Shown here: positions 9,932 to 63,433 of the stretch, in pieces
Layout: each line of letters opens with the position of its first letter
Numbering within the stretch: position 1 is the stretch's first letter
Assembly: GCA_000002445.1 (NCBI GenBank)
Contig: CM000207.1
Location: 448,001-512,000, forward strand
Direction of reading: 5' to 3'
Length of the DNA stretch: 64,000 bases
Source: Trypanosoma brucei
Lineage: Eukaryota
The notes under the pieces: generated by a model
The model's input: only the letters and a program-made list of their open reading frames with translations
Databases searched by the model: none
What the model was told of the DNA's origin: nothing
Made by a program: the position numbers and the translations under genes

Positions 9932-9968
<37 letters not shown>
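9932..9968. repeat. (TA)n microsatellite, ~18 units
   Basis: Direct read in the intergenic region upstream of the giant repeat gene. Confidence 0.9.
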
Positions 9969-9971
<3 letters not shown>

Positions 9972-13600: not shown

Positions 13601-16600
13601 CTGTGGGAATAGCTGCATCCTCTTTGCTCAGTTCCTTTGCATCATCATCAGCTGTAGGAATAGCTACATCCTCTTTGCTCAGTTCCTTTGCATCATCATC
13701 GGCTGTGGGAATAGCTGCATCCTCTTTGCTCAGTTCCTTTGCATCATCATCAGCTGTGGGAATGGCTGCATCCTCTTTGCTCAGTTCCTTTGCATCATCA
13801 TCGGCTGTGGGAATAGCTGCATCCTCTTTGCTCAGTTCCTTTGCATCATCATCAGCTGTGGGAATAGCTGCATCCTCTTTGCTCAGTTCCTTTGCATCAT
13901 CATCAGCTGTGGGAATGGCTGCATCCTCTTTGCTCAGTTCCTTTGCATCATCATCAGCTGTAGGAATAGCTGCATCCTCTTTGCTCAGTTCCTTTGCATC
14001 ATCATCGGCTGTGGGAATAGCTGCATCCTCTTTGCTCAGTTCCTTTGCATCAACATCAGCTGTGGGAATGGCTGCATCCTCTTTGCTCAGTTCCTTTGCA
14101 TCATCATCGGCTGTGGGAATAGCTGCATCCTCTTTGCTCAGTTCCTTTGCATCAACATCAGCTGTGGGAATGGCTGCATCCTCTTTGCTCAGTTCCTTTG
14201 CATCATCATCAGCTGTGGGAATAGCTGCATCCTCTTTGCTCAGTTCCTTTGCATCATCATCAGCTGTAGGAATAGCTACATCCTCTTTGCTCAGTTCCTT
14301 TGCATCATCATCGGCTGTGGGAATAGCTGCATCCTCTTTGCTCAGTTCCTTTGCATCAACATCAGCTGTGGGAATAGCTGCATCCTCTTTGCTCAGTTCC
14401 TTTGCATCATCATCAGCTGTGGGAATAGCTGCATCCTGTTTGCTCAGTTCCTTTGCATCATCATCGGCTGTGGGAATAGCTGCATCCTGTTTGCTCAGTT
14501 CCTTTGCATTATCATCAGCTGTGGGAATAGCTGCATCCTCTTTGCTCAGTTCCTTTGCATCAACATCAGCTGTGGGAATAGCTGCATCCTCTTTGCTCAG
14601 TTCCTTTGCATCAACATCAGCTGTGGGAATAGCTGCATCCTCTTTGCTCAGTTCCTTTGCATCAACATCAGCTGTGGGAATGGCTGCATCCTCTTTGCTC
14701 AGTTCCTTTGCATCAACATCAGCTGTGGGAATAGCTGCATCCTCTTTGCTCAGTTTCTTTGCATCAACATCAGCTGTGGGAATAGCTGCATCCTCTTTGC
14801 TCAGTTTCTTTGCATCAACATCAGCTGTGGGAATAGCTGCATCCTCTTTGCTCAGTTCCTTTGCATCATCATCAGCTGTGGGAATAGCTGCATCCTCTTT
14901 GCTCAGTTCCTTTGCATCATCATCAGCTGTGGGAATAGCTGCATCCTCTTTGCCCAGTTCCTTTGCATCATCATCAGCTGTGGGAATAGCTGCATCCTGT
15001 TTGCTCAGTTCCTTTGCATTATCATCAGCTGTGGGAATAGCTGCATCCTCTTTGCTCAGTTCCTTTGCATCATCATCAGCTGTGGGAATAGCTGCATCCT
15101 CTTTGCTCAGTTCCTTTGCATCAACATCAGCTGTGGGAATAGCTGCATCCTCTTTGCTCAGTTTCTTTGCATCAACATCAGCTGTGGGAATAGCTGCATC
15201 CTCTTTGCTCAGTTCCTTTGCATCAACATCAGCTGTGGGAATAGCTGCATCCTCTTTGCTCAGTTCCTTTGCATCAACATCAGCTGTGGGAATAGCTGCA
15301 TCCTCTTTGCTCAGTTCCTTTGCATCAACATCAGCTGTGGGAATAGCTGCATCCTCTTTGCTCAGTTCCTTTGCATCAACATCAGCTGTGGGAATAGCTG
15401 CATCCTCTTTGCTCAGTTTCTTTGCATCAACATCAGCTGTGGGAATGGCTGCATCCTCTTTGCTCAGTTCCTTTGCATCAACATCAGCTGTGGGAATGGC
15501 TGCATCCTCTTTGCTCAGTTCCTTTGCATCAACATCAGCTGTGGGAATAGCTGCATCCTCTTTGCTCAGTTTCTTTGCATCAACATCAGCTGTAGGAATA
15601 GCTGCATCCTCTTTGCTCAGTTCCTTTGCATCATCATCAGCTGTGGGAATAGCTGCATCCTCTTTGCTCAGTTCCTTTGCATCATCATCAGCTGTGGGAA
15701 TAGCTGCATCCTGTTTGCTCAGTTCCTTTGCATCATCATCAGCTGTGGGAATGGCTGCATCCTGTTTGCTCAGTTCCTTTGCATCAACATCAGCTGTGGG
15801 AATAGCTACATCCTCTTTGCTCAGTTCCTTTGCATCATCATCAGCTGTGGGAATAGCTACATCCTCTTTGCTCAGTTCCTTTGCATCATCATCAGCTGTG
15901 GGAATAGCTACATCCTCTTTGCTCAGTTCCTTTGCATCATCATCAGCTGTGGGAATAGCTGCATCCTCTTTGCTCAGTTCCTTTGCATCAACATCAGCTG
16001 TGGGAATAGCTACATCCTCTTTGCTCAGTTCCTTTGCATCATCATCAGCTGTGGGAATAGCTGCATCCTCTTTGCTCAGTTCCTTTGCATCAACATCAGC
16101 TGTGGGAATAGCTGCATCCTCTTTGCTCAGTTCCTTTGCATCAACATCAGCTGTGGGAATAGCTGCATCCTCTTTGCTCAGTTCCTTTGCATCATCATCG
16201 GCTGTGGGAATAGCTACATCCTCTTTGCTCAGTTCCTTTGCATCATCATCAGCTGTGGGAATGGCTGCATCCTGTTTGCTCAGTTCCTTTGCATCAACAT
16301 CAGCTGTGGGAATAGCTACATCCTCTTTGCTCAGTTCCTTTGCATCATCATCAGCTGTGGGAATAGCTACATCCTCTTTGCTCAGTTCCTTTGCATCATC
16401 ATCGGCTGTGGGAATAGCTGCATCCTGTTTGCTCAGTTCCTTTGCATCATCATCGGCTGTGGGAATAGCTGCATCCTGTTTGCTCAGTTCCTTTGCATCG
16501 TGAGCTGCATCATTATTTGTTTTATCGTTATCACTTCCTTTATTTTTCTGTTGGAGTTCAGTGATTGTGATGTTGTCAATGACCTTTTGCGCGTTGTCAG

Positions 16601-19229
16601 ATACGGCTTTATCCATTGATTGTTGTATTAGATTGGTTAAAATTGTTTCTTTACCTTCTTGTTCGCCATTTGTGTCCAAATGTTGCTGTTTGTTTATTGT
16701 TTTGCCGTGTTGTGGTGAGTCAAATTGATTGTGTACCGTGTGCTCATTTTCGTGTGTGGTAAGCGGTTTTTCTTGCTGGTTATTGTTTGTTTCTTTAGTT
16801 GTGAAGTCGTCGCAAGTTTCTGTACCCTCTTGTTTAATTTTGTCACTGGCTCGCCGGCTTGGAACTATTTCTTGAGTGGCAACGGTATCGTTAAGGGACG
16901 GAGTGCCACCCTCGCTACCTGTTGACCCCTTCAAAACCGTGTTTTCCCCTGCGTTGTTCAAGAGTGTTTGTTCCGCTGACAGGGCATCCCCTGGTTGTTG
17001 ATGCATGGGCTCTGTTGCTTGTATTGACAGCCGATTAGAAGAATTGATTTTGTGTTCTAAATTTGTCGGTGTTGTCCCCCCAGTTTGTTTTCCTGTATCT
17101 TGTTCTTTTGATGTCCTTTCCTCTCCCTCCACTATCGTGGTAGGCTGCATACCGTTCGCCAGTTCTTGTTCTGCATGTCGTTGATTCGGTGATTCGCGTG
17201 TCTGCCGCTCTTTCTCATCTATATTTTGGCATTTTCCCACAGGAGTGAGTTGATCCCTTGTGACAGTGGTGTGCTCTTGGCAATTTCCATTGTTAATTAA
17301 CAGTTGAGAAGTATTCACCCCTTGACAACCGTTGAATTGTTGCTCAGTTGCTTGACAAGGTGGCTGTTGGTACTGCTGGAGAGCCAGCCGAAGAGACATG
17401 ACCTCTTTCTGTATAGCAGTGGTTGCACTCATTATGTATTGTTCAGAGCTCTCCGTCGCGGTGGTTCCTGCAAATTGTTCTTCGGAGCAAACATTTGTTT
17501 CGTGTTCAACTGCACTAGGTACCGATTTTTCATTTCCTGGGACCAGTGCGTCTTCGTTGAACCCCAAAACTCTGTTAACTTGCGGGGCAAACACCTGCTC
17601 CACTTTATGTGTGTGTAGTGTCTGTTGTTGTTGGTTGCCCTTATTAGTCTCGACTTCGGTGGCCGTTCTCACATCACCGAGATGCCCATGCAGATATTCT
17701 GTGGTAACACTACTGCTGTGTTCTTCCCAAAAAGGCTGAGAAGTAGGCGGCTCCTTCGTTTTCACACTTTGTACTTGGCTCCTTTGGTTCTGTGAGGATT
17801 TCCTCCTTTTCCCCTCCAGAAGTTCATACAACTTGTGAACGTTGTTCAGTTCACATGTAGTAATGATGTCGCGAATTGCAGCATCACTGAGTTTGCCGTC
17901 GTGTTGTATGGATACCTCCACCATATTTGAATTTCTACAATTAAGTGCTACCGAAACATTTCCATGCGGTACCCCAAGAGAGTGTGCGATATCTTTTTCA
18001 TATGCCTGACATAGGTGAAACGGTACCACGCGCAACGACGTGTTTTGCTTGCTCTTGGGAAGGTCAAGGAGGAACATTGACTCTCTGGGGACCAACTTGG
18101 GCACCATCGCCCTTCGTGACATCTTTTGTCCCCTGCCTTCTCCCTTTTTAGGAGACATCTCACTGAGGGGCGAGGGAGTGCTCCGTTGCGACAACAGACA
18201 TGGCTTTCTAGGGCTTGAGCACGCTAATGTTGCTGTCAATGAGAACGTGTCACCCAACGCGTCATACTTGAGGCGTCGCAACTTGTACCGTATATGCTGC
18301 TCCGCCGTATACAGTGCCTCCCTATTTAATGTTTCCTCGAACGCTACATATTGTATGTCGTCAAGCATATCTTGACTCATTTCCTCCCATGCTTCTGCCG
18401 CGTCACCTGCACTGCTGGAGCGCTGTGAAGAGCAAGTAGCAGCGAACCCCGGGCACCCCCCTTTTGCTTCCATTTGGCTACTGCTCACTGCACCTGGGCT
18501 GGGGGTTCCCGTCCACCGGGATGTGTCGAATGTCTTCCCGGTGCTGTTCAATTTGTTTAAAACTTTACTGACTATTGCCCCTGTCTCCCCCTCGTCGCCA
18601 GCTGCACCACCCATATACACTTCGTTTCGCTGCGGCGAGCCTTCTTTCCTATCGCTGCCGCTCCGTTGATTTCCCTGTGTATTTCGGTCCTGTGCCACCA
18701 CAGCAATTTTGTACAAGTTCCCAACATGTCGTACGTTATCAGGCGTCAGAAGAGTGTAGGCGCCCTTGTTTTTATCAAAATATGTGATAAACACCACGCT
18801 TAGTTGTAAGAGCTCTGCGTTCTTCTGTATAGTTTCCAATACTGTCTCTATTGTCAGGGGGCCGTCGACATGCGGTGCCCCAACTAGCATAGAACCAACC
18901 AGCTCACCCGAGTCGGATATAAACTCGAGAGACCAGTTTTCTCCATTTATTGTGCCCTCCAGACGGCTTCCACTCGCACCCTGAGATCGGGGGTAACCCC
19001 CTTTGCCCCACGTGCCATCGTAGGTTGATTGCAGCGATATGTCACCCGACTGTTTTTCGAAACGAGACAATGGCCTACTGTAAGGTTCCAATAAATCCGC
19101 ACTGTACGTTGAAGGCGTGTCCCTGCCACTGTGTAGGTTTCTGCCGGCTTGGTTGGGGCGTTCGCTGCCGGTAGCTACACGACCATCTAAATGTCCGTCT
19201 CCCGGATGTGCCCTAGAGGTAAAATACAT
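10698..19229 (-). CDS. Giant tandem-repeat protein (2843 aa): unique N-terminal domain, ~70 x 17-aa acidic repeats DAKELSKEDAAIPTAD[D/V], long S-rich C-terminal region
   Basis: ATG verified at 19229-19227. Single uninterrupted frame of 8.5 kb on the gene strand. The repeat unit is exactly 51 nt and near-identical between copies. Flanking regions are non-repetitive and serine-rich. Confidence 0.75.
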   Translation of the reverse strand: MYFTSRAHPGDGHLDGRVATGSERPNQAGRNLHSGRDTPSTYSADLLEPYSRPLSRFEKQSGDISLQSTYDGTWGKGGYPRSQGASGSRLEGTINGENWSLEFISDSGELVGSMLVGAPHVDGPLTIETVLETIQKNAELLQLSVVFITYFDKNKGAYTLLTPDNVRHVGNLYKIAVVAQDRNTQGNQRSGSDRKEGSPQRNEVYMGGAAGDEGETGAIVSKVLNKLNSTGKTFDTSRWTGTPSPGAVSSSQMEAKGGCPGFAATCSSQRSSSAGDAAEAWEEMSQDMLDDIQYVAFEETLNREALYTAEQHIRYKLRRLKYDALGDTFSLTATLACSSPRKPCLLSQRSTPSPLSEMSPKKGEGRGQKMSRRAMVPKLVPRESMFLLDLPKSKQNTSLRVVPFHLCQAYEKDIAHSLGVPHGNVSVALNCRNSNMVEVSIQHDGKLSDAAIRDIITTCELNNVHKLYELLEGKRRKSSQNQRSQVQSVKTKEPPTSQPFWEEHSSSVTTEYLHGHLGDVRTATEVETNKGNQQQQTLHTHKVEQVFAPQVNRVLGFNEDALVPGNEKSVPSAVEHETNVCSEEQFAGTTATESSEQYIMSATTAIQKEVMSLRLALQQYQQPPCQATEQQFNGCQGVNTSQLLINNGNCQEHTTVTRDQLTPVGKCQNIDEKERQTRESPNQRHAEQELANGMQPTTIVEGEERTSKEQDTGKQTGGTTPTNLEHKINSSNRLSIQATEPMHQQPGDALSAEQTLLNNAGENTVLKGSTGSEGGTPSLNDTVATQEIVPSRRASDKIKQEGTETCDDFTTKETNNNQQEKPLTTHENEHTVHNQFDSPQHGKTINKQQHLDTNGEQEGKETILTNLIQQSMDKAVSDNAQKVIDNITITELQQKNKGSDNDKTNNDAAHDAKELSKQDAAIPTADDDAKELSKQDAAIPTADDDAKELSKEDVAIPTADDDAKELSKEDVAIPTADVDAKELSKQDAAIPTADDDAKELSKEDVAIPTADDDAKELSKEDAAIPTADVDAKELSKEDAAIPTADVDAKELSKEDAAIPTADDDAKELSKEDVAIPTADVDAKELSKEDAAIPTADDDAKELSKEDVAIPTADDDAKELSKEDVAIPTADDDAKELSKEDVAIPTADVDAKELSKQDAAIPTADDDAKELSKQDAAIPTADDDAKELSKEDAAIPTADDDAKELSKEDAAIPTADVDAKKLSKEDAAIPTADVDAKELSKEDAAIPTADVDAKELSKEDAAIPTADVDAKKLSKEDAAIPTADVDAKELSKEDAAIPTADVDAKELSKEDAAIPTADVDAKELSKEDAAIPTADVDAKELSKEDAAIPTADVDAKKLSKEDAAIPTADVDAKELSKEDAAIPTADDDAKELSKEDAAIPTADDNAKELSKQDAAIPTADDDAKELGKEDAAIPTADDDAKELSKEDAAIPTADDDAKELSKEDAAIPTADVDAKKLSKEDAAIPTADVDAKKLSKEDAAIPTADVDAKELSKEDAAIPTADVDAKELSKEDAAIPTADVDAKELSKEDAAIPTADVDAKELSKEDAAIPTADDNAKELSKQDAAIPTADDDAKELSKQDAAIPTADDDAKELSKEDAAIPTADVDAKELSKEDAAIPTADDDAKELSKEDVAIPTADDDAKELSKEDAAIPTADDDAKELSKEDAAIPTADVDAKELSKEDAAIPTADDDAKELSKEDAAIPTADVDAKELSKEDAAIPTADDDAKELSKEDAAIPTADDDAKELSKEDAAIPTADDDAKELSKEDAAIPTADDDAKELSKEDAAIPTADDDAKELSKEDAAIPTADDDAKELSKEDAAIPTADDDAKELSKEDVAIPTADDDAKELSKEDAAIPTADDDAKELSKEDAAIPTADVDAKELSKEDAAIPTADDDAKELSKEDAAIPTADDDAKELSKEDAAIPTADDDAKELSKEDAAIPTADDDAKELSKEDAAIPTADDDAKELSKEDAAIPTADDDAKELSKEDAAIPTADVDAKELSKEDAAIPTADVDAKELSKEDAAIPTADDDAKELSKEDAAIPTADDDAKELSKEDAAIPTADDDAKELSKEDAAIPTADDDAKELSKEDAAIPTADVDAKELSKEDGGSDGFVCDGEGSKTDVTGTAAPEDVEDFEIDGVPSVGSDVSSANRLTLDNSGVEGKVFRFEADACNEMREISSLSKDVDVLSVKGGEVGSVDTRRGGKLTSFSSAVVEPVVFGEAIVVSVDVCAQLVVDGEEFIRWSSEEMSNMIYDGAPTGGGVSAVRSTLRSAVKNSAVDAARDAVITTLNNALGSGCASAGVSSKEKTARLPNNRRRCQTAEANNNADDSPKAEGVSTERVGSTISMSGDIANVSDKEAGGVSALPDVSSSMRSHSKLSGTPSRFSAPRRRDLQHCVLNARDVGSSPFDYREKNQSAASPSVVFSCDGVLHDTKEENTGRNVSLQSAEAENRRPWVVDGGSPCSLRPGAGRSESLGSPALRTSSRFTPSVTGERPASSISCLRAVAARDAIASAARPSSSGSSRKLNLAQDTGNSEPFGPDFQGERLVYLGLYPDLGFGDGVNLRPPRLPAKRSTISNAYNRSKQHQNKANSGLGGELGRQRVTLPPVAEVRSETSGLYEPHSEGSAFMSTQPGPGQLGRGEYLQPHPPPQRKRLSLSFSEHQREIVQGASRSLSPQQQVPNSWAPTLQSAMRAAPSGRMPSPVFTQQSYQDSTSTLTERDGWNRLSPGSPSHHSSSWGPPYSPTGSNALSTTVDSTSQTARRLGRIASRVANAHYHCTPVGPTPSRFSMTRVQPVASRVQVRSWVPSRYTPQENAIHLYNER
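12850..16505 (-). repeat. 51-bp tandem repeat array (~71 units), coding, inside the giant ORF
   Basis: Plus-strand unit gctgtgggaatagctgcatcctctttgctcagttcctttgcatcatcatca is repeated head-to-tail. Only a handful of substitution types occur (atc/aac, agct/ggct, atagct/atggct, gcatcc/acatcc, tcctct/tcctgt, gttcc/gtttc) and they appear in blocks. Confidence 0.95.
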
Positions 19230-34275: not shown

Positions 34276-34688
34276 TGTGAGTACTTATCCTTATTTGCTT
34301 TTTTTTTCTTTTGCTTGCTTGTGTGCTATCCCCTCCTTTATCCTGGTGCTCCTTTTCTTGCGCAGCCCTCCCCTTTCTCCTTCCTTCTTTGCCTTTAAGT
34401 TGTCGTATAACTACAAATACCCTTTTCTTTCTTCTACCCCTCTAGAAGGGATTAAAAATATGAATTAAGTTGTGTCTTCACCACTTGCGTAAGTGTGGTA
34501 TTGTTTCCTCTGCCGCTTCAAATTTTTTTAAGGAGGGGGAGGGAAAAAAAAAATCTCAACAACTGCAGTTCCTTTTCCTCTTCTTCACTTGACGTAAAGA
34601 TGGTCACGTGATTAAGATTCCGTGGGTACACGTTGCTGAAACTTCTCTCTTCTTCCTTTCACTAATGATGTGTCCGGCTTTTTTTTTC

Positions 34689-34691
<3 letters not shown>

Positions 34692-34726
<35 letters not shown>
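34692..34726. repeat. (TA)n microsatellite, ~17 units
   Basis: Direct read; intergenic. Confidence 0.9.
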
Positions 34727-34728
<2 letters not shown>

Positions 34729-36755
34729 TAAAAAGAAAAACTTTTATTCGACTACTACTACTTCTCCTGCTGCAGCGTGTGTCGCTTTCTTCGGTTTTAT
34801 TGTTTATTTATTTTGAAACTTCTCGCCCTTGCGAACAGAGACGACACAACACTTTGAAAAACCAGATGAGAGATTAAAAAGAAAAAAAATTGAAAAAGTA
34901 AGAGACACCCTTTCCCCTCTTGTTTCTCTTCCTTCCCTCTTTCTACTTTACAATAAAAAAAAGGGTAAAATAATAATAATAATGTATCAAATATTTATTT
35001 ATTTTATCCTCTTTCCCTTGGCGTTATCCTCCTCTTTTACGGCTGCTCAAGAAGATTAAAAGGAAAAAAAAAAACAGATGCTGATAGATTTTTTTCTGTT
35101 TTTTTTGTCTTCATACTGATAGAATATTAATATTAAAACAGTAATGGTCACACAATCATTTATCATACGAAATATTATGGAATAGTTGCGGCAACGCACG
35201 CTTAAGCAGCAATGAGGAGAAAAAAGAAAATTTTATTTTTTATTTCGTTTTAAAGCATTTTTTTTAAAAAAAAGGAAAAACAACAGAACCCAAACAATTT
35301 TGAGCTATCGCCTCACCGTAGCAAGGGTGAAAGAATAATAAAAATAATAGTAATGGCAACCAGAAACTAAAAGTAAAAAAAAAAAAAGAAAAATGACATA
35401 TTCCTCTCCTTCCCACCTTTTCACTCGCCCAAACCCCTTTTTTTTTCTTTCGGTTAAGTGCGAGCAAACCGCTCGTCACCAACAGGAAGCGAAAAGGGTC
35501 AAAAAAGAAAACAAAAACAAAAATCGTCCAGACGCGCAAACGAAGCAGTTGAACGAAATTGTTGGAGGAAGGAAGGAATGAAGGGGGAAAAAAAAAGAAA
35601 GAAAAAAACATTAAACAAGTGGTGCTCACAGTGTAGAGAGTACATCAACTTTAAAATAGGAAAATAATTTAAAGAAACTGAAGGCAAACAACCCAATGGG
35701 TTAAGCTCAAACAAAATACAAATATTCTTGCGTTTCCCATACACCGTAGTTTATTTATTTTTTTTTTGTCATTTTGAAAAAAAATTATATCCCTTCCTCC
35801 TTTCTCTTTTCTCTGTTTCTCGTGTTTTTACTTGCTTGATTTTGTTTCCCTTTCACTCTTATTCCACTTTCTTGCGTTCCCTCAGGTGATGAAAGGAAGA
35901 ATTTATCTTTTGTTTATTTTTATATTTGCTTTAGAGGGGAAGAGAAATAAGCAAGGGCCGGGTGTGTGAGAGGGGGAAAAAAAACATAACAAAAATAAAA
36001 ACAATTGGATTTTAGTTGAGGGCACAAAAGTAAGTAAAAACATAAATTTTGATGAAACATAAGTTTATTCTCTATATATTCATTCGAATTTTTACAGAAG
36101 TTGTGTATGAACACACATGAATATTTATATAAATTAATTATGAAAATGTGAGGCAGGATGGAGTGAACGGTGAGCACCGCCTATCCATCCAAGTAGAGGG
36201 GGGAAAATATGCGTAAAAAACATATATTAATTTTTTTTTTTTACTACGTCACCCTTTCTTCATTATCATTCCTCACGCGCCGCCAAGCACAGTCAAAACA
36301 ACAAACAAGCATACACACCAAAACATGAACAATCAAACGAGTACATAAAAGTATATATATATGCCTGCCCACGTTTGTACTTACGGCTGATTAAACGTAT
36401 ATAAGTAGATACAAACACACACACGTACATATACATATATGTAGTAGTTGGAACATTCATTTCATATTCATATGCACGTGTATGATTTGCTCACCCCGGT
36501 TTCCACCTCCCTGTTTTTTTTTCCTTTCCTAGTGCTTACTTAACTCGCACACACACTCTCTTTCCACTCCACATCCCCTTCTATAATCAGAAACAAAAGA
36601 AAGGAAAAGAAAAGCAAAACAGTTCATATCCGTTCAGACAGTCATCAAGATGAGTAATGGGCACAGAGAGCTAACTGAGCCTTTACTCGAGCACGACGGT
36701 ACACAGACATTAGGGCAGACAAAAGAAAAACCAGAAGAGAATATAAACACACATT

Positions 36756-56244: not shown

Positions 56245-57348
56245 TCAGCGGCGCCGCCACACGGTGCAATGAGCAACCCCCAACTGGTAGCGACGAACAT
56301 GATCACGAATAAGAAATGCCTCATCTGTTTCACTGAGAAGATCAAAGTTCGCTCCCAATATTTCCTTCACCAATATTTCACTCGTTGACCCTTCTGCCCT
56401 TCCACCAACCCACGTATCCCGCTCCTCTACCGAACCCTCCCATGAATATGGTGAGGAGATCACGAGGATGCCACCAGAAACGAGCAGCAGCGGCAGCATA
56501 TCCAACAGCTTGCGAGGGTTGGGAACGCGACAGAGCAGATTCGCAACAAGCACAGCGTCAAAGCGCTCTCCTGAAGGAACACGGTACCATGAAGTTATAT
56601 CTTCATCATTTGTATCACCATGGTGGACGGGAGGCACAATATGACCTCTGCCATCATCGCCATCCGAATCAAGAAGATTCATTGCGTCGCCCCGATAGAA
56701 ACGGCACCGTTGAGGAACCGCCCCATCCGGTAGACATGCAGTGCGCTCCACTGTAATATCACCCTGCAAAGGGGCCTCATATTTGATTGGCTGTATGTTT
56801 GGGTTCAGCGCGCTTTGCACGACATTTCTCGCCATTTTGATGAATGCCACAGAGTAATCAATCCCGACAACCCGGCTGAAATATTTACTCATCTCCAGAG
56901 AGGAAGCACCAACCGCACACCCCAAATCAAGAGCACGTCTTTCCTTTCCATCATTAGCAGGCACAAATTCATGAAACTTGCGAGCGACTCGGATGGGATA
57001 ATCAAAGCTCTCAGATATCATACGAAGGTTTTGCGCAAAGCTTTCCGACGAGAGGGTGTAGTGAAACTCCATGTATTGCCGCACACTTGCATCACTTTCG
57101 TAAACGTTCGCCGGTTCTGAGGGACGACAGAGCGCCCAATGGGGAAACCACTTTCCAAAAAACCCAAACAGTTTACGAAGCACCCAAACCCCATCCGTCC
57201 AAGATAGGAACTTGTAGCGACAGCGCAGGAAGTGATCAAAAACGTCACGAAAGGCATATGTCGCTGCGGAGGAAACGACAGCCGTAAAAATGACACTACC
57301 CACTAAACATCTCGTCTCGGGAGCGGTACATTTGCACAACGCCAGCAT
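56245..57348 (-). CDS. Class I SAM-dependent methyltransferase (367 aa)
   Basis: ATG verified at 57348-57346. Motif I ALDLGCAVGASSLEM, followed by VVGIDYSVAFIKMARN and a later DAVLVANLL post-motif. Typical Rossmann-fold MTase layout. Confidence 0.7.
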   Translation of the reverse strand: MLALCKCTAPETRCLVGSVIFTAVVSSAATYAFRDVFDHFLRCRYKFLSWTDGVWVLRKLFGFFGKWFPHWALCRPSEPANVYESDASVRQYMEFHYTLSSESFAQNLRMISESFDYPIRVARKFHEFVPANDGKERRALDLGCAVGASSLEMSKYFSRVVGIDYSVAFIKMARNVVQSALNPNIQPIKYEAPLQGDITVERTACLPDGAVPQRCRFYRGDAMNLLDSDGDDGRGHIVPPVHHGDTNDEDITSWYRVPSGERFDAVLVANLLCRVPNPRKLLDMLPLLLVSGGILVISSPYSWEGSVEERDTWVGGRAEGSTSEILVKEILGANFDLLSETDEAFLIRDHVRRYQLGVAHCTVWRRR

Positions 57349-57462
57349 AACACAATAAGTTTGGAACCAATGAAAATAAAACTAGAAAATTCAACCTCAC
57401 TGTACGTGCAGTCAAGGAAGAAAAAGCAGGAAAACTGAGCACGGCATCACATTATTCACAAG

Positions 57463-57824
57463 TAGACACCGAAAAAAAAAAAGCAGTATAGAATACACGA
57501 CCCATAAGGCATCATTCAAAGGGGTTGTCAGATTGCTGAAAAAGGGAAATGAAGAGAAAATAATATAACATGGATATACACACAAAACAACAACAACATT
57601 AAAAACACCACAAAGGCCGAATCGAACGGCTGCGAGTCCAACTCGCCTACGGGTTTGAAGCCCGCACCCAGCACCAGCTGAGCTCATCGTGGCGCAACTT
57701 TTTCTTCCATCATCGGATTGAAATTCCATACTCGTGTCATACAGTCGCGTTTTGGGTGGTGACAAGTAACATTTCTCCTTCTCATTCCTTTAAATCCTTT
57801 TTCTTCATCTTTTAGTTGCAAGAA
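57463..57824 (-). repeat. 362-bp direct repeat, copy 1, containing a tRNA-Sec gene
   Basis: Matches 61300-61661 from tagacaccgaaaaaaaaaaagcagtatag through ttagttgcaagaa. Sequence diverges immediately outside both ends. Confidence 0.9.
57606..57693 (-). tRNA. Selenocysteine tRNA (anticodon UCA), copy 1
   Basis: Minus strand gccacgatgagctcagctggtgctgggtgcgggcttcaaacccgtaggcgagttggactcgcagccgttcgattcggcctttgtggtg. Folds with a 9-bp acceptor and 4-bp T stem (the eukaryotic tRNA-Sec 9/4 architecture). Anticodon stem gcggg/cccgt with loop cuUCAaa, identical to the human tRNA-Sec loop. 5-bp variable-arm stem, T-loop gttcgattc, discriminator g, followed by T5. Confidence 0.85.
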
Positions 57825-58181
57825 AAAAACAATAGGTTGGAAGAAAACAACAGAAGAGACAATACTTTGGTTGCGTGGAAGTTAGAGTGACTTGTCAAAG
57901 AAAAAATAAGCGTACCACTGGCCAATGGCCCTCCGGCGCGTAGCGGATACCACATCCGCAACACATGCTTATGCCAAGGGATCGTTAGCAGTATCAACAA
58001 TGGAACAGAAGGAAAGCAAATGAGTATATAAAGTAAAGAAGAAAAAAACAGTGGAGATGCGCCACCTCTGCCAGCTTGCACCTCTAAGGACTATGAGAGA
58101 GAAAGAGGGGAAAAGCGTCAGTGCGAAGAGTGGCTAAGCAAAACGCAGCAGAAGTTATAACTGTGAATAAAAATCGTGCCA

Positions 58182-61100
58182 TCACCACCTACGGTGGGCA
58201 CTGCATCGATAGACTGAGGAAGAACACTGAGACACGGCACGAGCACGCGGCCGTGATTGAAGAATTAAGGCACCCTCCGTTCTGAAACATATATCTGACA
58301 CAAGTTTGTTGACTCGAGCCCGGATTTCCGTACCGTCATCAAGCGTCTCCCTCATAAATTGAGCACATTCACAAGGTGATGGGACTGGGCTTACACACAG
58401 CCACCGTGTGATACGATTTGGTGGGATTGCCCAATGCTGTGCACATTCTTTTATCTCCTCCTCTTCCTTGTGAAGAAGCCTAAACTCTGCATCGTCAAGT
58501 GCTTCCAGCCACTTGTCCATACACCCCTCCAGTTTGGTTGTTGAAGGTCCCACATCCCCAATATGGTTATCATAAGGAACATCTTCACAATCGGTAGTTG
58601 TCGCATCACCGTGCTGAGAGCGACGATGCGCATCCACGAGGTTCGCCCGCCAGTGCATGAAAACGGTATGAACATCACCTGTGATTGTTGTAATGCGATT
58701 CGGCGGAGCGGGAGACGGTATGGCCAACGGCACAGCAGAGACATACTCAACAATAAAACACCGCTCCCCGGCACCGGCGAAATAGTTGTGGCTCCAGCTC
58801 ACCCACGGTAAGGGACTCAACGTGTTGCCACACGCCGTCGCGGTATCGGTTTCCCCGTCAAGGCGATCCTCCAACCACGTGTTGACAGCCGAAACCAACA
58901 TCTCCATTGCGCAGTGTGCAGCTTCCTCCTCGTCCAGAATGTCCTCGTCGTCCTCGATAAGAGAGGGCAGGTAGACCTTATCGACGCGTGCGCTAGCACT
59001 CAGTCTTAATTGTGAATGGATGAAGAAATTGGTGTTCAGGCCGCGTGCTTCTAGCTCTTCGAGCAGTGGCCCGTTGTCGCCAACAGTCTGGAAAGCAATG
59101 TCATATTCTTGCATCTGTAAGAAAACCCGCTCTACAAAACACAAGGTCTTCGGCATGTACATCGGTAGCTTCCGATGGCTTTCATGGTCAGTAGTGCTTT
59201 GCACAGAAACGATGGGATCGACTGGTGTGTCGTACGCACGCAAGTTGCCTAGCGCTGTGAGGATATGTTCAAGAAGTGAAGTGGTTTGGGCGTTCCCCCG
59301 CCGCTCCAGCATATCTCCAGAAACATCGACGCTCCACCAGTGAACGACGTTATGGGGGAGGTAACGCCCATTATCTATTGGTAGAACACTTGGTGTCATG
59401 GTGCGACCTAGTAACGCCGCCTCTTCCTCATCTTCCTCCTCTTCCTCATCGCTGTCACCCAAGCACACGTCCAACAGCACATCTTCTTTTCCCTCGACAA
59501 TGCGCTTAACAGAGGCTTCCACCGACTTCTCCCACCATGGCATGCGTAAAGAAAAAATGGGGGACTCAAGAAGCAATTTCTTGGCAGTAGGTCGTTCCGC
59601 CGGGTCTACTGCCATCATCCTGTCAATGCAATGCAAGAACTCTGCCGAAAGATTTCGTGCCCGCAGTGCCCTTGCCATTAGCTGAACACTTGGTGTGAGA
59701 ACCCATGGAGGCCACTGAGTTGTGCTTGTCACTCCCTCCTTTGTTTCATCCCCACTCAAGGAGGTATACCGGGTGTACTGTGTGCCACTGATGCGGTCGG
59801 TAGCGATGATGTTACCATCCTCTTTGTCCACCCCTACGCTGTGCTCACCACAAATACTCTCCTCGTGGCACCCGCGTCGAGCAGCAAGCTCCCGTATAGA
59901 GATTTGAAGCGCCTTGTCGTCTACAAGTGGAATCACCGCCAGTGTTGCCAGCGGTGGGTAGTCACCTCGCGCAACCCAAAGACGTGCTGCAACTGTGGCA
60001 TTACTTTCGGACTCCGTTGGTGACATAAAGGATGGAATCATACCGTTAAAAGTAACTGTCAACATGCCCTCATCCATTCCTAGACCCCCTCCAGTTAGAA
60101 ACACGTAGAAAAGCGCAGCTGCACTCCAAATATCAGACGCGTACGAGTACGGGCACCGGTGCCGATATCCCCAATATCGCGCAATTTCCGGCGGTAAGTA
60201 GGCGCAAGATCCAACCACTGTACGCTCAGTTTGGGAGTCCGAATCTGTTACCTTAGTTGCAATACCGAAGTCAGCAAGGATCAACTCGACGTTGCTTTCC
60301 CAGTTGGTGGGGGAGACCCTGTTGCGGAGGAGTATGTTGGATGGTTTGATGTCTCTGTGCAGTAACCCGTTTCCGTGCAAGCACGCGAGCCCGCTTAGTA
60401 TCTGTGACATCCAGCATACGAGATGTTCCTCAGCTATGTAAGAGCCATACAGTTTGAGCAGTTCCCCGAAGGTGCCGCCGATCCCCACCTCAACGACCAT
60501 GTGCACGGAAGTCGGTGCTGCCACTGTGCGAGGAGATGATGTTGGCATACAGTCGGTACCGTATAATGGATCGTGTTCCACAAAAACACCATAAAAACGT
60601 TCGAGCCGGGGATGTCGAGGAAGCGTGGCAATGACTTGGGCTTCACGTAAAAGGTTGCACAACATGGGGCAGTGGTTTAACACTGCACAACCAACACCAC
60701 TTGGTGTCAGGTGCAATTCATTCATTGCACCTTCACGACCGCAAACACTCGATAGCAGCATGATCGGAGAAGGAAGTTGCGTGAAACTTTTCGCAGCAAA
60801 GAAACGAGTGGGCCGTAGACGGCTCTGCAACACGGTCACAGAGCTAAAGCTCCCGGTGCCTAACTTCAAAACAGTGTTAAAAAGGCAATCGATGGAATAA
60901 CTGCTGTTGAAGATGATACCGTCAATGTCGTCTCCCTCACCCCAATCACCAGTGGCTTCCCCACACGAGGCACAAGCGTGTTGTCCAGACCGAAAACCAC
61001 TGCTTCCCCCGGATAGCAGGCGATCCACGGGGTACTCGTGCAGTGACGATTTTGAACCCGAGCCCAATAGTGGAAAACGCAACCCCCCATTGGGTCCAAC

Positions 61101-61196
61101 CGTTCGCTTTACGAGATCATCACACCAGGAGAGGGGGACACCATCAAGAATATGCGAGGGAGGGAACAAAATGTTGACAGTCAGATACTCCTCCAT
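58182..61196 (-). CDS. Serine/threonine protein kinase (1004 aa) with a long C-terminal extension
   Basis: ATG verified at 61196-61194. Gly-loop LGTGSFSSV, FFAAKSF (AxK), HRD LLHRDIKPSNILL, DFG LADFGIATKV, APE CAYLPPEIA, subdomain IX SDIWSAAALFYVFLTGG. Acidic DSDEEEEEDEEE in the C-terminal region. Confidence 0.85.
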   Translation of the reverse strand: MEEYLTVNILFPPSHILDGVPLSWCDDLVKRTVGPNGGLRFPLLGSGSKSSLHEYPVDRLLSGGSSGFRSGQHACASCGEATGDWGEGDDIDGIIFNSSYSIDCLFNTVLKLGTGSFSSVTVLQSRLRPTRFFAAKSFTQLPSPIMLLSSVCGREGAMNELHLTPSGVGCAVLNHCPMLCNLLREAQVIATLPRHPRLERFYGVFVEHDPLYGTDCMPTSSPRTVAAPTSVHMVVEVGIGGTFGELLKLYGSYIAEEHLVCWMSQILSGLACLHGNGLLHRDIKPSNILLRNRVSPTNWESNVELILADFGIATKVTDSDSQTERTVVGSCAYLPPEIARYWGYRHRCPYSYASDIWSAAALFYVFLTGGGLGMDEGMLTVTFNGMIPSFMSPTESESNATVAARLWVARGDYPPLATLAVIPLVDDKALQISIRELAARRGCHEESICGEHSVGVDKEDGNIIATDRISGTQYTRYTSLSGDETKEGVTSTTQWPPWVLTPSVQLMARALRARNLSAEFLHCIDRMMAVDPAERPTAKKLLLESPIFSLRMPWWEKSVEASVKRIVEGKEDVLLDVCLGDSDEEEEEDEEEAALLGRTMTPSVLPIDNGRYLPHNVVHWWSVDVSGDMLERRGNAQTTSLLEHILTALGNLRAYDTPVDPIVSVQSTTDHESHRKLPMYMPKTLCFVERVFLQMQEYDIAFQTVGDNGPLLEELEARGLNTNFFIHSQLRLSASARVDKVYLPSLIEDDEDILDEEEAAHCAMEMLVSAVNTWLEDRLDGETDTATACGNTLSPLPWVSWSHNYFAGAGERCFIVEYVSAVPLAIPSPAPPNRITTITGDVHTVFMHWRANLVDAHRRSQHGDATTTDCEDVPYDNHIGDVGPSTTKLEGCMDKWLEALDDAEFRLLHKEEEEIKECAQHWAIPPNRITRWLCVSPVPSPCECAQFMRETLDDGTEIRARVNKLVSDICFRTEGALILQSRPRARAVSQCSSSVYRCSAHRRW

Positions 61197-61299
61197 GTAC
61201 AGAAATTGCTACGTGAAGGGGGTAAAGGGGAAAAAAAAACGAGAGGTTTCGGTGGTAGCGAATTCTTAATAGTGTGGTGTTGTACAATGAGATTAAAAA

Positions 61300-61661
61300 T
61301 AGACACCGAAAAAAAAAAAGCAGTATAGAATACACGACCCATAAGGCATCATTCAAAGGGGTTGTCAGATTGCTGAAAAAGGGAAATGAAGAGAAAATAA
61401 TATAACATGGATATACACACAAAACAACAACAACATTAAAAACACCACAAAGGCCGAATCGAACGGCTGCGAGTCCAACTCGCCTACGGGTTTGAAGCCC
61501 GCACCCAGCACCAGCTGAGCTCATCGTGGCGCAACTTTTTCTTCCATCATCGGATTGAAATTCCATACTCGTGTCATACAGTCGCGTTTTGGGTGGTGAC
61601 AAGTAACATTTCTCCTTCTCATTCCTTTAAATCCTTTTTCTTCATCTTTTAGTTGCAAGAA
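61300..61661 (-). repeat. 362-bp direct repeat, copy 2, containing a tRNA-Sec gene
   Basis: Near-identical to 57463-57824. Lies ~100 nt upstream of the kinase ATG at 61196. Confidence 0.9.
61443..61530 (-). tRNA. Selenocysteine tRNA (anticodon UCA), copy 2
   Basis: Sequence and fold identical to copy 1. Followed by a T5 run on the minus strand (aaaaa at 61438-61442 on plus). Confidence 0.85.
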
Positions 61662-62836
61662 CAGGTTGAGGCATGATAGCGTGTTGTACTGTATCCCACG
61701 TTCCGTCTAATGTGAAAAGAACAAATGTAAGAGTGCCTCGCAGAGAACTCATGGCACGGTCATACTCGTTGCCTTTGATGAATCATACATGAGTGTACCC
61801 TTTTGTACATTAATTTATTTTTTTTTCTAAGCGGGTATCTCATCCCTCAAGTGAAGTTACTAAAAGTTGCTTGGGTGTGAACTCAGTTTCGAGATGACTG
61901 AGAATCCAACTTGGCATACGGTGGCCACGGAGCGATGAGGCACATTCACCATCTGTGGACCCCATCCCTTCAAGAGTTTCGTAGGACTGTATATATGGGT
62001 CACTTAAATACGACCTCTACGAAAACAACTTGGACACGGGACAAAACAAAAAACAAAGAGCAAAGAAAGAAAGAAAGAGGAGAACCAAGAGGGAAAAGGA
62101 GCGGGTGAATGAAGTGATGGATTGATTGAATTGAAGGATGACAGCAAACACGCAATAATAGTGAGTGCGCCATACAACAAAATGAAGAAATTGAGAAGAG
62201 GGATGGTGGGAGGAAAAAAGAAAAGAACGTTTTCATTCAATAGTCAACGAAAAGGCCAACAGAAAATGGAAGGGATTCGGAGTCACTTTTCTCGCACCGC
62301 CTCCCATACCGCTGGAACGGTTCAATTACGAAGGGCAGCGGTAACACGAGGAAAAAGCAGGTGGAAAGAAAAACATTTTTGACCGCTCATAGCGCTAAGA
62401 AAAAAAAAAAGTGACCTCTCCAACAAGCTGCAAACCCCCACAACCGACAGGGGTAGTCACTGCAATGCCCTCCCTTCCCCCCCCCCCCAGGAACACGCTT
62501 ACATTTGCTTTGCTTTTCGTTTCTTTTTGATAGGTATGTCATCGATGCTGTACCTGACGCTATATTTGCACTACTAATACGTATACAAAAATACATACAT
62601 ACTCATTTACTTATAGTTAGTTGCACCATTTTGGCACTTGAAAAGCCACTCCCTCGACCGTTAATGCCAGCACAGAAGGTGCATAATGTATGTGTAAAAT
62701 AGTACCTTATAAAACAAATACGAAAACACGCGCGCGCGAGTAAAGGCAAAGGAGTTAGGGTGCGATGCTGTACGAGGAAGCACCACTCTATTTCTTTAAC
62801 TTTTTCCTCTAGTTCCCGGAAAGAACAGTGCTCGAA

Positions 62837-63433
62837 TTATTTCCGTGGATAAAGGGCAACGGTACGCCAGAAATTGTACACCTTCAGCTGGTTGTGGAAC
62901 CGGCTTTCCTCACTGGGATCGTGAGAATGATCCAAAACAAATGTAACCACAAGTCGATCGGTGAATTTCATCTTCATCTGGCCAATGCGCTCCGATGAAA
63001 TGCCGCAACAGGCAGCCACATCTTCCTTGATGGCTCGCTCCAGAGCCACAGACATATTAGAGAGAGCTTGCGACCAACGTGCCCCGCGGAACCGGATCGT
63101 GTGGGTAACGGCCGTTCTCCCGGCAACTGGTTGAAGAGACCGTACGGAAACGTTTGTACCCGATTCACGACGAGAAGTACTGCGGTTATCAAAAGAGAAA
63201 ATCCTGTCGCCACCACTCCTGGAAGAAACTCTCTCGGTATAGTTGTTGTACACCGCTCCCTGCTTTTCCCCATTCGATCCAGAAAAGGAAGCCTTGCGAG
63301 GATTCATGCCATCCGCTGTGAGAGGAGGGGCAACGTGACCTCTGTTTACAGACGCCCGGCGGTTGGCGACCCAATCCGGCATACGATGAACAACCTCTCG
63401 TTGGCTATAGTTAACACCGTTCTGTGTTGTCAT
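62837..63433 (-). CDS. Hypothetical protein (198 aa), S/R-rich
   Basis: ATG verified at 63433-63431. On the gene strand. No recognisable motif. Confidence 0.35.
   Translation of the reverse strand: MTTQNGVNYSQREVVHRMPDWVANRRASVNRGHVAPPLTADGMNPRKASFSGSNGEKQGAVYNNYTERVSSRSGGDRIFSFDNRSTSRRESGTNVSVRSLQPVAGRTAVTHTIRFRGARWSQALSNMSVALERAIKEDVAACCGISSERIGQMKMKFTDRLVVTFVLDHSHDPSEESRFHNQLKVYNFWRTVALYPRK

What the first reader, a model, noticed from the sequence alone, without database searches (positions are those of the whole stretch)
57463..61661. 362-bp direct repeats flank a 3-kb protein-kinase gene, a recombination-prone cassette
The two copies (57463-57824 and 61300-61661) are essentially identical over 362 bp, and sequence diverges immediately outside them. 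They enclose one complete kinase CDS (58182-61196). Homologous recombination between such direct repeats would delete or tandemly amplify the kinase together with one tRNA-Sec copy. Each repeat also supplies the same upstream processing context, since each lies upstream of a gene start: the kinase and the methyltransferase at 57348. This implies the two downstream mRNAs share a common 5' processing region.
Basis: seen in the sequence. Interest (0 to 1): 0.6.

Follow-up and report, generated by a model that had tools for sequence, protein, structure and literature searches.

The report
Known duplicated trypanosome tRNA-Sec locus
The two identical 362-bp repeats are the already published pair of selenocysteine-tRNA genes that flank a kinase gene on Trypanosoma brucei chromosome 9; they are real and are kept identical by recombination, but the locus is not new.

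Summary
Window 57463-57824 and 61300-61661 are 362/362 identical, with sharp borders. This is the only long dispersed repeat in the 64 kb. Each copy holds a minus-strand tRNA-Sec gene, and together they flank a 1004-aa kinase CDS.

The window is T. brucei brucei TREU927 chromosome 9. The published tRNA-Sec coordinates, intergenic lengths (833 and 1640 bp), five published oligos and two protein records all match exactly. The locus is Fig. 3 of Aeby et al. [quoted passage not shown] Tandem tRNA-Sec/kinase arrays in T. cruzi have also been published.

The recombination inference is supported. The order tRNA-Sec, kinase, tRNA-Sec, methyltransferase recurs in six further Trypanosoma genomes, and a seventh, broken assembly (T. 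equiperdum) is consistent with it. Those genomes hold 2 to 8 tRNA-Sec copies in the stretch fetched. Flanks are near-identical within a species and diverged between species. T. b. gambiense has the same 362-bp pair, and both of its copies carry one substitution relative to both TREU927 copies.

The claim of a shared 5' processing region is not borne out. An RNA-derived contig shows the spliced leader joined to the kinase mRNA at AG 61210-61209, 91 nt outside the repeat.

Verdict: already known, low interest.

The parts
57463..57824 (-). Repeat copy A (362 bp). It lies between the kinase stop codon and the methyltransferase start codon, in the 833-bp intergenic region. On the minus strand it comprises 131 nt of 5' flank, the tRNA-Sec gene and 143 nt of 3' flank.
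   Evidence: Exact identity to 61300-61661.
61300..61661 (-). Repeat copy B (362 bp), in the 1640-bp intergenic region upstream of the kinase.
57606..57693 (-). tRNA-Sec gene (anticodon TCA), copy A. It corresponds to chr9 505,606-505,693 of Padilla-Mejia 2009.
   Evidence: ARAGORN. Rfam RF01852, 72.3 bits. The published probe matches at 57673. Coordinates are from PMC2695483.
61443..61530 (-). tRNA-Sec gene (anticodon TCA), copy B. It corresponds to chr9 509,443-509,530.
58182..61196 (-). Ser/Thr protein kinase CDS of 1004 aa (Tb09.160.1090).
   Evidence: ORF. Pkinase domain, E = 2e-31. Identical to the TREU927 protein P0199. The 3'-RACE primers of Aeby 2010 map at 59011 and 59041.
56245..57348 (-). 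Methyltransferase CDS of 367 aa (Tb09.160.1070), the gene downstream of repeat copy A.
   Evidence: ORF. Methyltransf_23 and related domains. Identical to the TREU927 protein P0196. The 5'-RACE primers map at 57062 and 57117. TIGR04345 ovoA_Cterm scores 158.5 bits, below its cut-off of 170.
62837..63433 (-). Upstream neighbour, a 198-aa protein with a FAZ1 conserved domain (probably Tb09.160.1100, inferred from gene order). It marks the proximal end of the cassette.
   Evidence: It is syntenic in T. theileri, T. melophagium, T. conorhini and T. b. gambiense.
57536..57560 (-). Pyrimidine tract of 23 nt followed by AG (A at 57537, G at 57536), inside repeat copy A. It is a candidate alternative trans-splice acceptor for the methyltransferase and would give a 187-nt 5'UTR.
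   Evidence: Sequence scan. Prediction only.
61373..61397 (-). The same 23-nt pyrimidine tract followed by AG (61374-61373), inside repeat copy B. It is a candidate alternative acceptor for the kinase and would give a 176-nt 5'UTR.
   Evidence: Sequence scan. RNA contig L001 reaches 20 nt into the repeat, to 61319. Use of the site is not shown.
61209..61246 (-). Kinase-specific pyrimidine tract (61246-61215) and the observed trans-splice acceptor AG (61210-61209). It lies outside the repeat and gives a 12-nt 5'UTR.
   Evidence: Logan contig L003 starts with the last 24 nt of the T. brucei spliced leader, fused to the sequence beginning at window 61208.
57400..57434 (-). Methyltransferase-specific pyrimidine tract (57434-57414) and the next AG (57401-57400). 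It lies outside the repeat and predicts a 51-nt 5'UTR.
   Evidence: Sequence scan. Prediction only.

Best explanation
This is the known selenocysteine-tRNA locus of Trypanosoma brucei brucei TREU927 chromosome 9. Two identical modules flank the kinase gene Tb09.160.1090 inside a one-directional Pol II polycistron. Each module is 131 nt of 5' flank, the tRNA-Sec gene and 143 nt of 3' flank, in the same orientation as the protein genes.

The tRNAs have no working internal promoter. They are made by read-through Pol II transcription and are then cut out of the intergenic RNA; this is published experimental work.

The arrangement of two tRNA-Sec copies around the kinase predates the divergence of the sampled Trypanosoma species. 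The perfect identity of the T. brucei copies is therefore maintained by recurrent gene conversion or unequal crossing-over between the direct repeats. The same process has produced tandem tRNA-Sec/kinase arrays in other trypanosomes.

What was shown here: the repeat, the identity of the locus, the conserved architecture, the pattern of paralogues being more alike than orthologues, the shared substitution, and one kinase splice site. What is published: Pol II dependence. What is inferred: the conversion mechanism, and that recombination is still going on in T. brucei.
For: Identity of the locus:
- The tRNA positions and their 3837-bp spacing equal the published chr9 coordinates.
- The intergenic lengths of 833 and 1640 bp equal those in Aeby 2010.
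- All five published oligos match exactly, in the expected genes.
- The kinase and methyltransferase are identical to the TREU927 proteins.
- The legend of Aeby Fig. 3 states that the two genes, including flanking sequence, are identical.

Polycistron context:
- The ORFs matching real genes lie on the minus strand; the few plus-strand ORFs listed lie inside them.
- In the five whole-locus fetches from other species (T. cruzi, T. rangeli, T. melophagium, T. theileri, T. conorhini), all 19 tRNA-Sec copies are co-oriented with the kinase. The two copies in T. b. gambiense are co-oriented as well.

Ancient architecture:
- tRNA-Sec, kinase, tRNA-Sec, methyltransferase occur in that order in T. cruzi, T. 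rangeli, T. conorhini, T. theileri, T. melophagium and T. b. gambiense.
- The split T. equiperdum assembly is consistent with the same order.

Concerted evolution:
- The 3' flanks are 0.99 identical between T. rangeli paralogues and 0.95 between T. conorhini paralogues, but only 0.70-0.74 between the orthologues of those two species.
- Their 5' flanks keep orthology instead: 0.68 and 0.78 between orthologues against 0.54 and 0.59 between paralogues. This shows that both copies predate that speciation.
- T. brucei flanks do not align convincingly with those of the other species.
- In T. b. gambiense DAL972 the two copies are again 362/362 identical with the same borders. Both have G where both TREU927 copies have A, at repeat position 119. 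T. equiperdum copy 1 also has G.
- The unique DNA between the repeats differs by 23 substitutions in 3475 nt between the two subspecies.

Amplification:
- T. cruzi TCC has a 3.5-kb unit present at least 4 times.
- T. melophagium has 8 tRNA-Sec genes and 4 kinase copies in 22.8 kb.
- Eleven copies are published for T. cruzi Dm28c.
Against: - No population or long-read data for T. brucei strains could be examined. Deletion or amplification alleles within T. brucei are therefore not shown. TREU927 and DAL972 both have exactly two copies, and the broken T. equiperdum assembly is consistent with two.
- The evidence for conversion inside the T. brucei group rests on a single shared substitution.
- With about 0.66% divergence between the subspecies, only about 2.4 differences between paralogues would be expected in each genome without homogenisation. 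Zero differences is suggestive rather than decisive on its own.
- An ancestral two-copy state is the parsimonious reading. Independent duplications into the same two intergenic regions are not formally excluded.
- No upstream locus could be retrieved for T. congolense or T. vivax.
Confidence: 0.85

Rival explanations
1. The repeat is a recent segmental duplication specific to the T. brucei lineage. The copies are identical only because they are young, and no conversion or crossing-over is taking place.
For: The copies are 100% identical with sharp borders, as expected just after a duplication. The flanks have no clear similarity to those of other species, so homology of the T. brucei junctions to theirs cannot be shown directly.
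Against: - The same gene order, with a tRNA-Sec on each side of the kinase, occurs in every other Trypanosoma locus retrieved whole.
- The distal homology border lies at a similar distance 3' of the tRNA in all of them: 143 nt in T. brucei, 120 in T. cruzi, 170 in T. rangeli, 151 in T. conorhini and 142-148 in T. theileri.
- T. b. gambiense has the same 362-bp borders, so the duplication predates the subspecies split. Even so, a substitution is present in both copies of one lineage.
Confidence: 0.08
2. The flanks stay identical because every base is under strong purifying selection, for example as tRNA-processing or trans-splicing signals, and recombination plays no part.
For: The 3' flank carries a 23-nt pyrimidine tract followed by AG. 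A 3' flank of about 120-170 nt is co-conserved between paralogues in every species. Aeby 2010 detected spliced leader attached to the 5' flank.
Against: - The flanks are poorly conserved between species, whereas the tRNA itself is nearly invariant.
- No conserved secondary structure appears in the 5' flank: consensus energy is -4.0 kcal/mol with a covariation term of -0.33.
- Selection alone cannot explain the same substitution in both copies.
- The 5' homology length varies from 13 to 176 nt among species.
Confidence: 0.05
3. The repeat is an assembly artefact, or a tRNA-derived mobile element (SINE-like retroposon) inserted twice.
For: Short-read assemblies do break here. The T. equiperdum contigs end 32 nt and 18 nt inside copy 2. 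Logan contigs of the kinase stop at or before the repeat borders.
Against: - The two-copy structure is reproduced in the independent T. b. gambiense chromosome assembly.
- It was also confirmed experimentally by cloning and RT-PCR across the short intergenic region.
- No target-site duplication or A-rich tail is visible at the borders.
- No further copies occur in the window.
- The literature reports only these two copies in the T. brucei genome.
Confidence: 0.02

Closest known systems
T. brucei tRNA-Sec genes embedded in a Pol II polycistron (Aeby et al. 2010, NAR 38:5833, PMC2943599; located by Padilla-Mejia et al. 2009, PMC2695483)
   Same: It is the same locus. The coordinates, the 3837-bp spacing, the 833- and 1640-bp intergenic lengths, the oligos, the flanking genes Tb09.160.1070 and Tb09.160.1090, and the statement that the genes and their flanks are identical all match.
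   Different: Nothing differs in the object itself.
Tandem tRNA-Sec/kinase array of T. cruzi: 11 copies in Dm28c (Diaz-Viraque et al. 2025, GBE, PMC12204681; Silva et al. 2025, mBio, PMC12421993)
   Same: The tRNA-Sec is orthologous (identical sequence). The kinase is orthologous (41% identity). The array ends next to the same methyltransferase, and the tRNA has the same orientation.
   Different: T. brucei has only one kinase and two tRNAs. In T. cruzi the whole 3.5-kb unit is repeated. In the TCC contig examined here, two of the kinase copies read as frameshifted, which may be long-read sequencing error.
Concerted evolution of tandem or dispersed gene copies in trypanosomatids by gene conversion and unequal crossing-over (general phenomenon, stated from my own knowledge)
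   Same: Paralogues are more alike than orthologues, homology borders are sharp, copy number differs between lineages, and a substitution is shared by both copies.
   Different: The homogenised segment here is short, non-coding apart from a tRNA, and split by a unique 3.5-kb gene. It is not a head-to-tail gene array.
Leishmania major tRNA-Sec, a single copy on chromosome 6 in a different polycistron (Aeby 2010; Padilla-Mejia 2009)
   Same: It is also a polycistron-embedded tRNA-Sec with a deviant B box.
   Different: It is single-copy, has different neighbouring genes and is not linked to a kinase, according to the papers. It was not examined here.

Membership tests
Polycistron-embedded, Pol II-transcribed trypanosome tRNA-Sec gene | A genuine tRNA-Sec: long acceptor stem and variable arm, UCA anticodon. 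| tested here: met
   ARAGORN calls tRNA-SeC (tca) for both copies. Rfam RF01852 scores 72.3 bits against a gathering score of 47, over the full-length model 1-91.
Polycistron-embedded, Pol II-transcribed trypanosome tRNA-Sec gene | The gene lies in an intergenic region between protein genes of one unidirectional cluster, on the same strand as those genes. | tested here: met
   The ORFs matching real genes in the window are on the minus strand. The tRNAs are on the minus strand, between the FAZ1-like gene, the kinase and the methyltransferase.
Polycistron-embedded, Pol II-transcribed trypanosome tRNA-Sec gene | A deviant internal B box (C at position 1 and G at position 11 relative to GGTTCGANTCC). 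| tested here: met
   The T-arm reads GCCGUUCGAUUCGGC against the Rfam consensus cgGGUUCGAuUCCcg (alignment). This is the deviation described in PMC2695483.
Polycistron-embedded, Pol II-transcribed trypanosome tRNA-Sec gene | Transcription depends on Pol II: alpha-amanitin sensitivity, loss on RPB9 RNAi, and no expression without an external promoter. | not testable with these tools
   Published for exactly this locus (PMC2943599). No sequence analysis can show it.
Polycistron-embedded, Pol II-transcribed trypanosome tRNA-Sec gene | Identity with the published T. brucei chr9 locus. | tested here: met
   Coordinates and spacing, intergenic lengths, five oligos and two proteins identical to TREU927.
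Direct repeats under concerted evolution (gene conversion or unequal crossing-over) | Paralogous copies within a genome are more similar than orthologous copies between genomes, even though the duplication predates the split. | tested here: met
   For T. rangeli and T. conorhini 3' flanks, paralogues score 0.99 and 0.95 against 0.70-0.74 for orthologues. Their 5' flanks keep orthology. T. brucei copies are 100% identical but barely alignable to those of other species.
Direct repeats under concerted evolution (gene conversion or unequal crossing-over) | A lineage-specific substitution is present in all copies. | tested here: met
   Repeat position 119 is A in both TREU927 copies and G in both DAL972 copies and in T. 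equiperdum copy 1. Only one such site exists.
Direct repeats under concerted evolution (gene conversion or unequal crossing-over) | The copy number of the enclosed cassette varies among lineages. | tested here: met
   The loci fetched hold 2, 2, 2, 3, 4 and 8 tRNA-Sec genes, with 1 to at least 4 kinase copies. The literature gives 11 copies in T. cruzi Dm28c.
Direct repeats under concerted evolution (gene conversion or unequal crossing-over) | Structural variation (a deletion or duplication allele) exists within T. brucei populations. | not testable with these tools
   No strain read sets or long-read assemblies were reachable. TREU927 and DAL972 have two copies. T. equiperdum is unresolved because its assembly breaks in the repeat.
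tRNA-derived retroposon (SINE-like element) | Target-site duplications, an A-rich or poly(A) tail, and many dispersed copies. | tested here: not met
   The sequences at the four borders share no duplication and show no A tail in the element's orientation. The window holds only these two copies, and the genome is reported to hold only two.

The most novel reading that the evidence does not exclude
Across the genus Trypanosoma, the tRNA-Sec gene plus roughly 120-170 nt of its 3' flank behaves as one actively homogenised unit placed in front of each gene of this small cluster. tRNA-Sec dosage would then be set by unequal crossing-over of a Pol II-transcribed tRNA/kinase cassette. The co-homogenised 3' flank, a pyrimidine tract followed by AG, would be a functional element that couples excision of the tRNA to alternative trans-splicing of the downstream mRNA. 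The genus-wide concerted evolution and the conserved position of the 3' border do not appear in the papers I read.
Probability: 0.2. Interest if true: 0.4.

Novelty: already known. Interest (0 to 1): 0.15.

Why it matters
The locus matters as the textbook exception of a nuclear tRNA made by RNA polymerase II, but that was established in 2010.

- The duplicated module is kept identical by recombination rather than by youth or selection, and the same module has expanded into arrays in other trypanosomes. The tRNA-Sec gene number in these parasites is therefore a product of local unequal exchange that carries a kinase gene along with it.
- The repeat breaks short-read assemblies, as seen in T. 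equiperdum. Anyone calling copy number here should take that into account.
- At least one kinase splice site lies outside the repeat.

None of this opens a long-standing question.

Tried and rejected
- I looked for published splice-site coordinates for Tb09.160.1070 and Tb09.160.1090 in the supplements of Nilsson 2010, Kolev 2010 and Siegel 2010. The supplements held contain no entry for these genes, and none are held for Siegel 2010 or Aeby 2010. The methyltransferase splice site therefore remains a prediction.
- I tested for a conserved RNA structure in the 5' flank across six species. The consensus energy is -4.0 kcal/mol and the covariation term is -0.33, so there is no support.
- I tried to obtain Salivarian outgroups. 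The T. congolense kinase is not on record, and the T. vivax contig starts inside the methyltransferase. Neither gave information on the upstream region.
- An exact look-up of the window's methyltransferase returned nothing, although the TREU927 protein is in the cluster table.
- I considered a retroposon origin. It was rejected because there are no target-site duplications, no tail and no other copies.
- I considered an assembly artefact. It was rejected on the strength of the independent gambiense assembly and the published experiments.
- The whole-window repeat finder was swamped by a 51-bp tandem array, so I replaced it with a self-blastn.

Full report
**1. Observation**

Comparing the window with itself at an offset of 3837 nt gives an unbroken run of identity from 57463 to 57824 against 61300 to 61661. 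That is 362 of 362 positions, and matches fall to background immediately outside. blastn reports the same 362 nt at 100% identity, or 365 nt with one mismatch starting at 57460.

A self-comparison of the whole 64 kb finds no other dispersed repeat. The only other repeated DNA is a 51-bp tandem array inside a large ORF at about 12.7-16.5 kb.

Between the copies lies one complete ORF, 58182-61196 on the minus strand. It encodes 1004 aa with a protein-kinase domain. Each copy holds a tRNA-Sec gene (anticodon TCA) on the minus strand, at 57606-57693 and 61443-61530 (ARAGORN; Rfam RF01852, 72.3 bits against a threshold of 47). Read on the minus strand, each repeat is 131 nt of 5' flank, the tRNA, and 143 nt of 3' flank.

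**2. Identity of the locus**

The ORFs that match real genes all lie on the minus strand, and one neighbour has a FAZ1 domain. This is a trypanosomatid polycistron. Four lines of evidence fix the source:

- Padilla-Mejia et al. 2009 place the two T. brucei tRNA-Sec genes at chr9 505,606-505,693 and 509,443-509,530. That is the same 3837-bp spacing and the same last five digits as here, so the window corresponds to about chr9 448,001-512,000.
- Aeby et al. 2010 give intergenic regions of 1640 and 833 bp. The window gives exactly 1640 (61197-62836) and 833 (57349-58181).
- All five oligos listed in that paper match the window perfectly, in the expected genes.
- The kinase and the methyltransferase are residue-for-residue identical to the T. 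b. brucei TREU927 proteins.

The legend of Aeby's Figure 3 already states that [quoted passage not shown], and that Tb09.160.1090 between them is a Ser/Thr kinase.

**3. How the genes work (published, not tested here)**

Aeby et al. showed that these tRNAs lack functional internal promoters. [quoted passage not shown] The whole short intergenic region is transcribed together with the flanking ORFs.

The sequence features I could check agree with this:

- The tRNAs are co-oriented with the gene cluster.
- The B box deviates from consensus (alignment).
- The T-run after the tRNA is not conserved. It is T5 in T. brucei and T10-12 in T. cruzi, but only TT in T. rangeli and T. conorhini. That fits a gene that does not rely on Pol III termination.

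**4. Is the cassette recombination-prone?**

I fetched the orthologous locus from other trypanosomes through the kinase and methyltransferase proteins. The table summarises what was found.

| Genome | tRNA-Sec copies in the stretch fetched | Kinase copies | Note |
|---|---|---|---|
| T. brucei TREU927 (window) | 2 | 1 | |
| T. b. gambiense DAL972 | 2 | 1 | same 362-bp borders |
| T. rangeli | 2 | 1 | |
| T. conorhini | 2 | 1 | |
| T. theileri | 3 | 1 | |
| T. cruzi TCC | 4, at a 3.5-kb period | at least 4 | contig starts inside the array |
| T. melophagium | 8 in 22.8 kb | 4 | methyltransferase lies beyond the fetched stretch |

Wherever the stretch fetched reached both sides of the kinase, a tRNA-Sec sits on each side, and the last copy lies just upstream of the methyltransferase wherever that gene was reached. 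The T. equiperdum assembly is split within copy 2, so only its copy 1 is complete. In the five other species fetched whole, all 19 copies are co-oriented with the kinase.

The literature already reports 11 tandem copies interspersed with the kinase in T. cruzi Dm28c. It also notes that most Trypanosoma genomes have two or more copies, with the same flanking genes as in T. brucei. Copy number of exactly this cassette therefore does vary between lineages, as unequal exchange between the repeats would predict.

**5. Concerted evolution**

The tRNA itself is almost invariant across species, but the flanks are not. T. brucei flanks align poorly with those of every other species.

T. rangeli and T. 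conorhini are close relatives, which allows a direct comparison:

- Their 3' flanks are 0.99 and 0.95 identical between paralogues, but only 0.70-0.74 between orthologues.
- Their 5' flanks show the opposite pattern: 0.68 and 0.78 between orthologues against 0.54 and 0.59 between paralogues.

Both copies therefore existed before that speciation, and the 3' flank was homogenised afterwards.

The border of homology on the methyltransferase side lies at a similar distance from the tRNA in every species: 143, 120, 170, 151 and 142-148 nt. The 5' extent varies from 13 to 176 nt.

Within the T. brucei group, DAL972 has the same 362-bp pair with the same borders, and its copies are again 362/362 identical to each other. 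Both DAL972 copies carry G at repeat position 119, where both TREU927 copies carry A. T. equiperdum copy 1 also has G. The unique DNA between the repeats differs by 23 substitutions and 19 gap positions in 3475 nt between the two subspecies.

One substitution present in both copies of one lineage is the signature of gene conversion. It is a single site, so the inference is good but not overwhelming.

**6. The shared 5' processing claim**

Each repeat does lie upstream of a gene start, and its 3' flank carries a 23-nt pyrimidine tract followed directly by AG (57537-57536 and 61374-61373). If those sites were used, the two mRNAs would share the first 73 nt of their 5'UTRs. Each gene also has its own pyrimidine tract and AG in unique sequence closer to the ATG.

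The four Logan contigs that encode the kinase are 99.6% identical to the window and appear to be RNA-derived. One of them, L003, begins with TAGAACAGTTTCTGTACTATATTG, the last 24 nt of the T. brucei spliced leader. This is joined directly to CAATTTCTGTACATGG, which is window 61208 downward, immediately after the genomic AG at 61210-61209. At least one kinase mRNA is therefore trans-spliced 91 nt outside the repeat and has a 12-nt 5'UTR.

Three other contigs run further upstream without a leader, one of them 20 nt into the repeat. Longer species or precursors therefore exist, and the in-repeat site may be an alternative acceptor.

At the 3' end the kinase contigs stop at 57880-58125, before repeat copy A. 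This fits Aeby's placement of the kinase poly(A) site upstream of the tRNA and the methyltransferase splice site downstream of it.

I could not retrieve published splice-site tables for these genes.

**7. Rivals**

- A young duplication specific to T. brucei is unlikely, given the genus-wide architecture and the substitution shared within the gambiense pair.
- Purifying selection alone cannot explain flanks that are identical within a genome but diverged between species, nor a shared substitution. A search for a conserved 5'-flank structure found nothing.
- An assembly artefact is excluded by the independent gambiense chromosome and by published cloning and RT-PCR. The repeat does, however, break the T. 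equiperdum short-read assembly from both sides.
- A retroposon origin has no support: there are no target-site duplications, no tail and no further copies.

**8. Verdict**

The repeat is real and exactly as described, but it is a well-characterised locus. The inference about mRNA processing is not supported by the one splice junction that could be recovered. Novelty: already known. Interest: low.

Noticed in passing
window 12698-16500 (inside ORF 10698-19229, minus strand): A very regular 51-bp tandem array of at least 73 copies at 96-98% identity. It encodes a 17-aa repeat inside a 2843-aa ORF.
   Followed up: no
window 56245-57348 (minus strand): The methyltransferase downstream of the tRNA-Sec is annotated as a hypothetical protein. 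It scores 158.5 bits (E = 2e-46) against TIGR04345 ovoA_Cterm, 'putative 4-mercaptohistidine N1-methyltransferase', just under the 170-bit cut-off. Many bacterial homologues carry that name. It may be a stand-alone methyltransferase of the ovothiol pathway.
   Followed up: partly
L010:6171-9167 (T. b. gambiense DAL972 orthologue of the kinase): The gambiense kinase reading frame has an in-frame stop at codon 796 and an 18-nt (6-aa) deletion in an acidic stretch. No gene was called there in the collection. It may be a pseudogene or a truncated protein in that subspecies, or a sequencing error.
   Followed up: partly
L012 (3' end) and L013 (5' end), T. equiperdum contigs CZPT02000760.1 and CZPT02000621.1: The T. 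equiperdum assembly is split exactly at repeat copy 2. One contig ends 32 nt into the copy and the other starts 18 nt before its end, so the kinase and the methyltransferase sit on different contigs.
   Followed up: yes
L007:4966-22790 (T. melophagium) and L008:8431-15545 (T. theileri): T. melophagium has 8 tRNA-Sec genes and 4 kinase copies in 22.8 kb, with two alternating kinds of 3' flank and tRNA pairs about 1.2 kb apart. T. theileri has 3 tRNA-Sec genes and one kinase, with an extra small ORF between the last two tRNAs.
   Followed up: partly
L006:432-440 and L009:9473-9481 compared with window 57597-57605: The T-run that follows the tRNA-Sec is T5 in T. brucei and T10-12 in T. cruzi. It is absent in T. 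rangeli and T. conorhini, which read TTCCTGG and TTCCCGG. This is consistent with no need for a Pol III terminator.
   Followed up: no
L001-L004 (Logan contigs from ERR7929159-ERR7929163): These contigs appear to come from RNA rather than genomic DNA: L003 carries a spliced-leader junction. They come from a T. brucei-group strain whose kinase differs from the TREU927 kinase at 3 residues.
   Followed up: partly
window 34680-34740 and 9932-9969: Two short palindromic segments, of 62 nt at 90% and 38 nt at 100%, appear as reverse self-matches.
   Followed up: no
L005:1525-7843 (T. cruzi TCC): Two of the tandem kinase copies in the TCC contig are split into shorter ORFs by frameshifts, while the copy nearest the methyltransferase is intact. 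These may be true pseudogenes or long-read indel errors.
   Followed up: no
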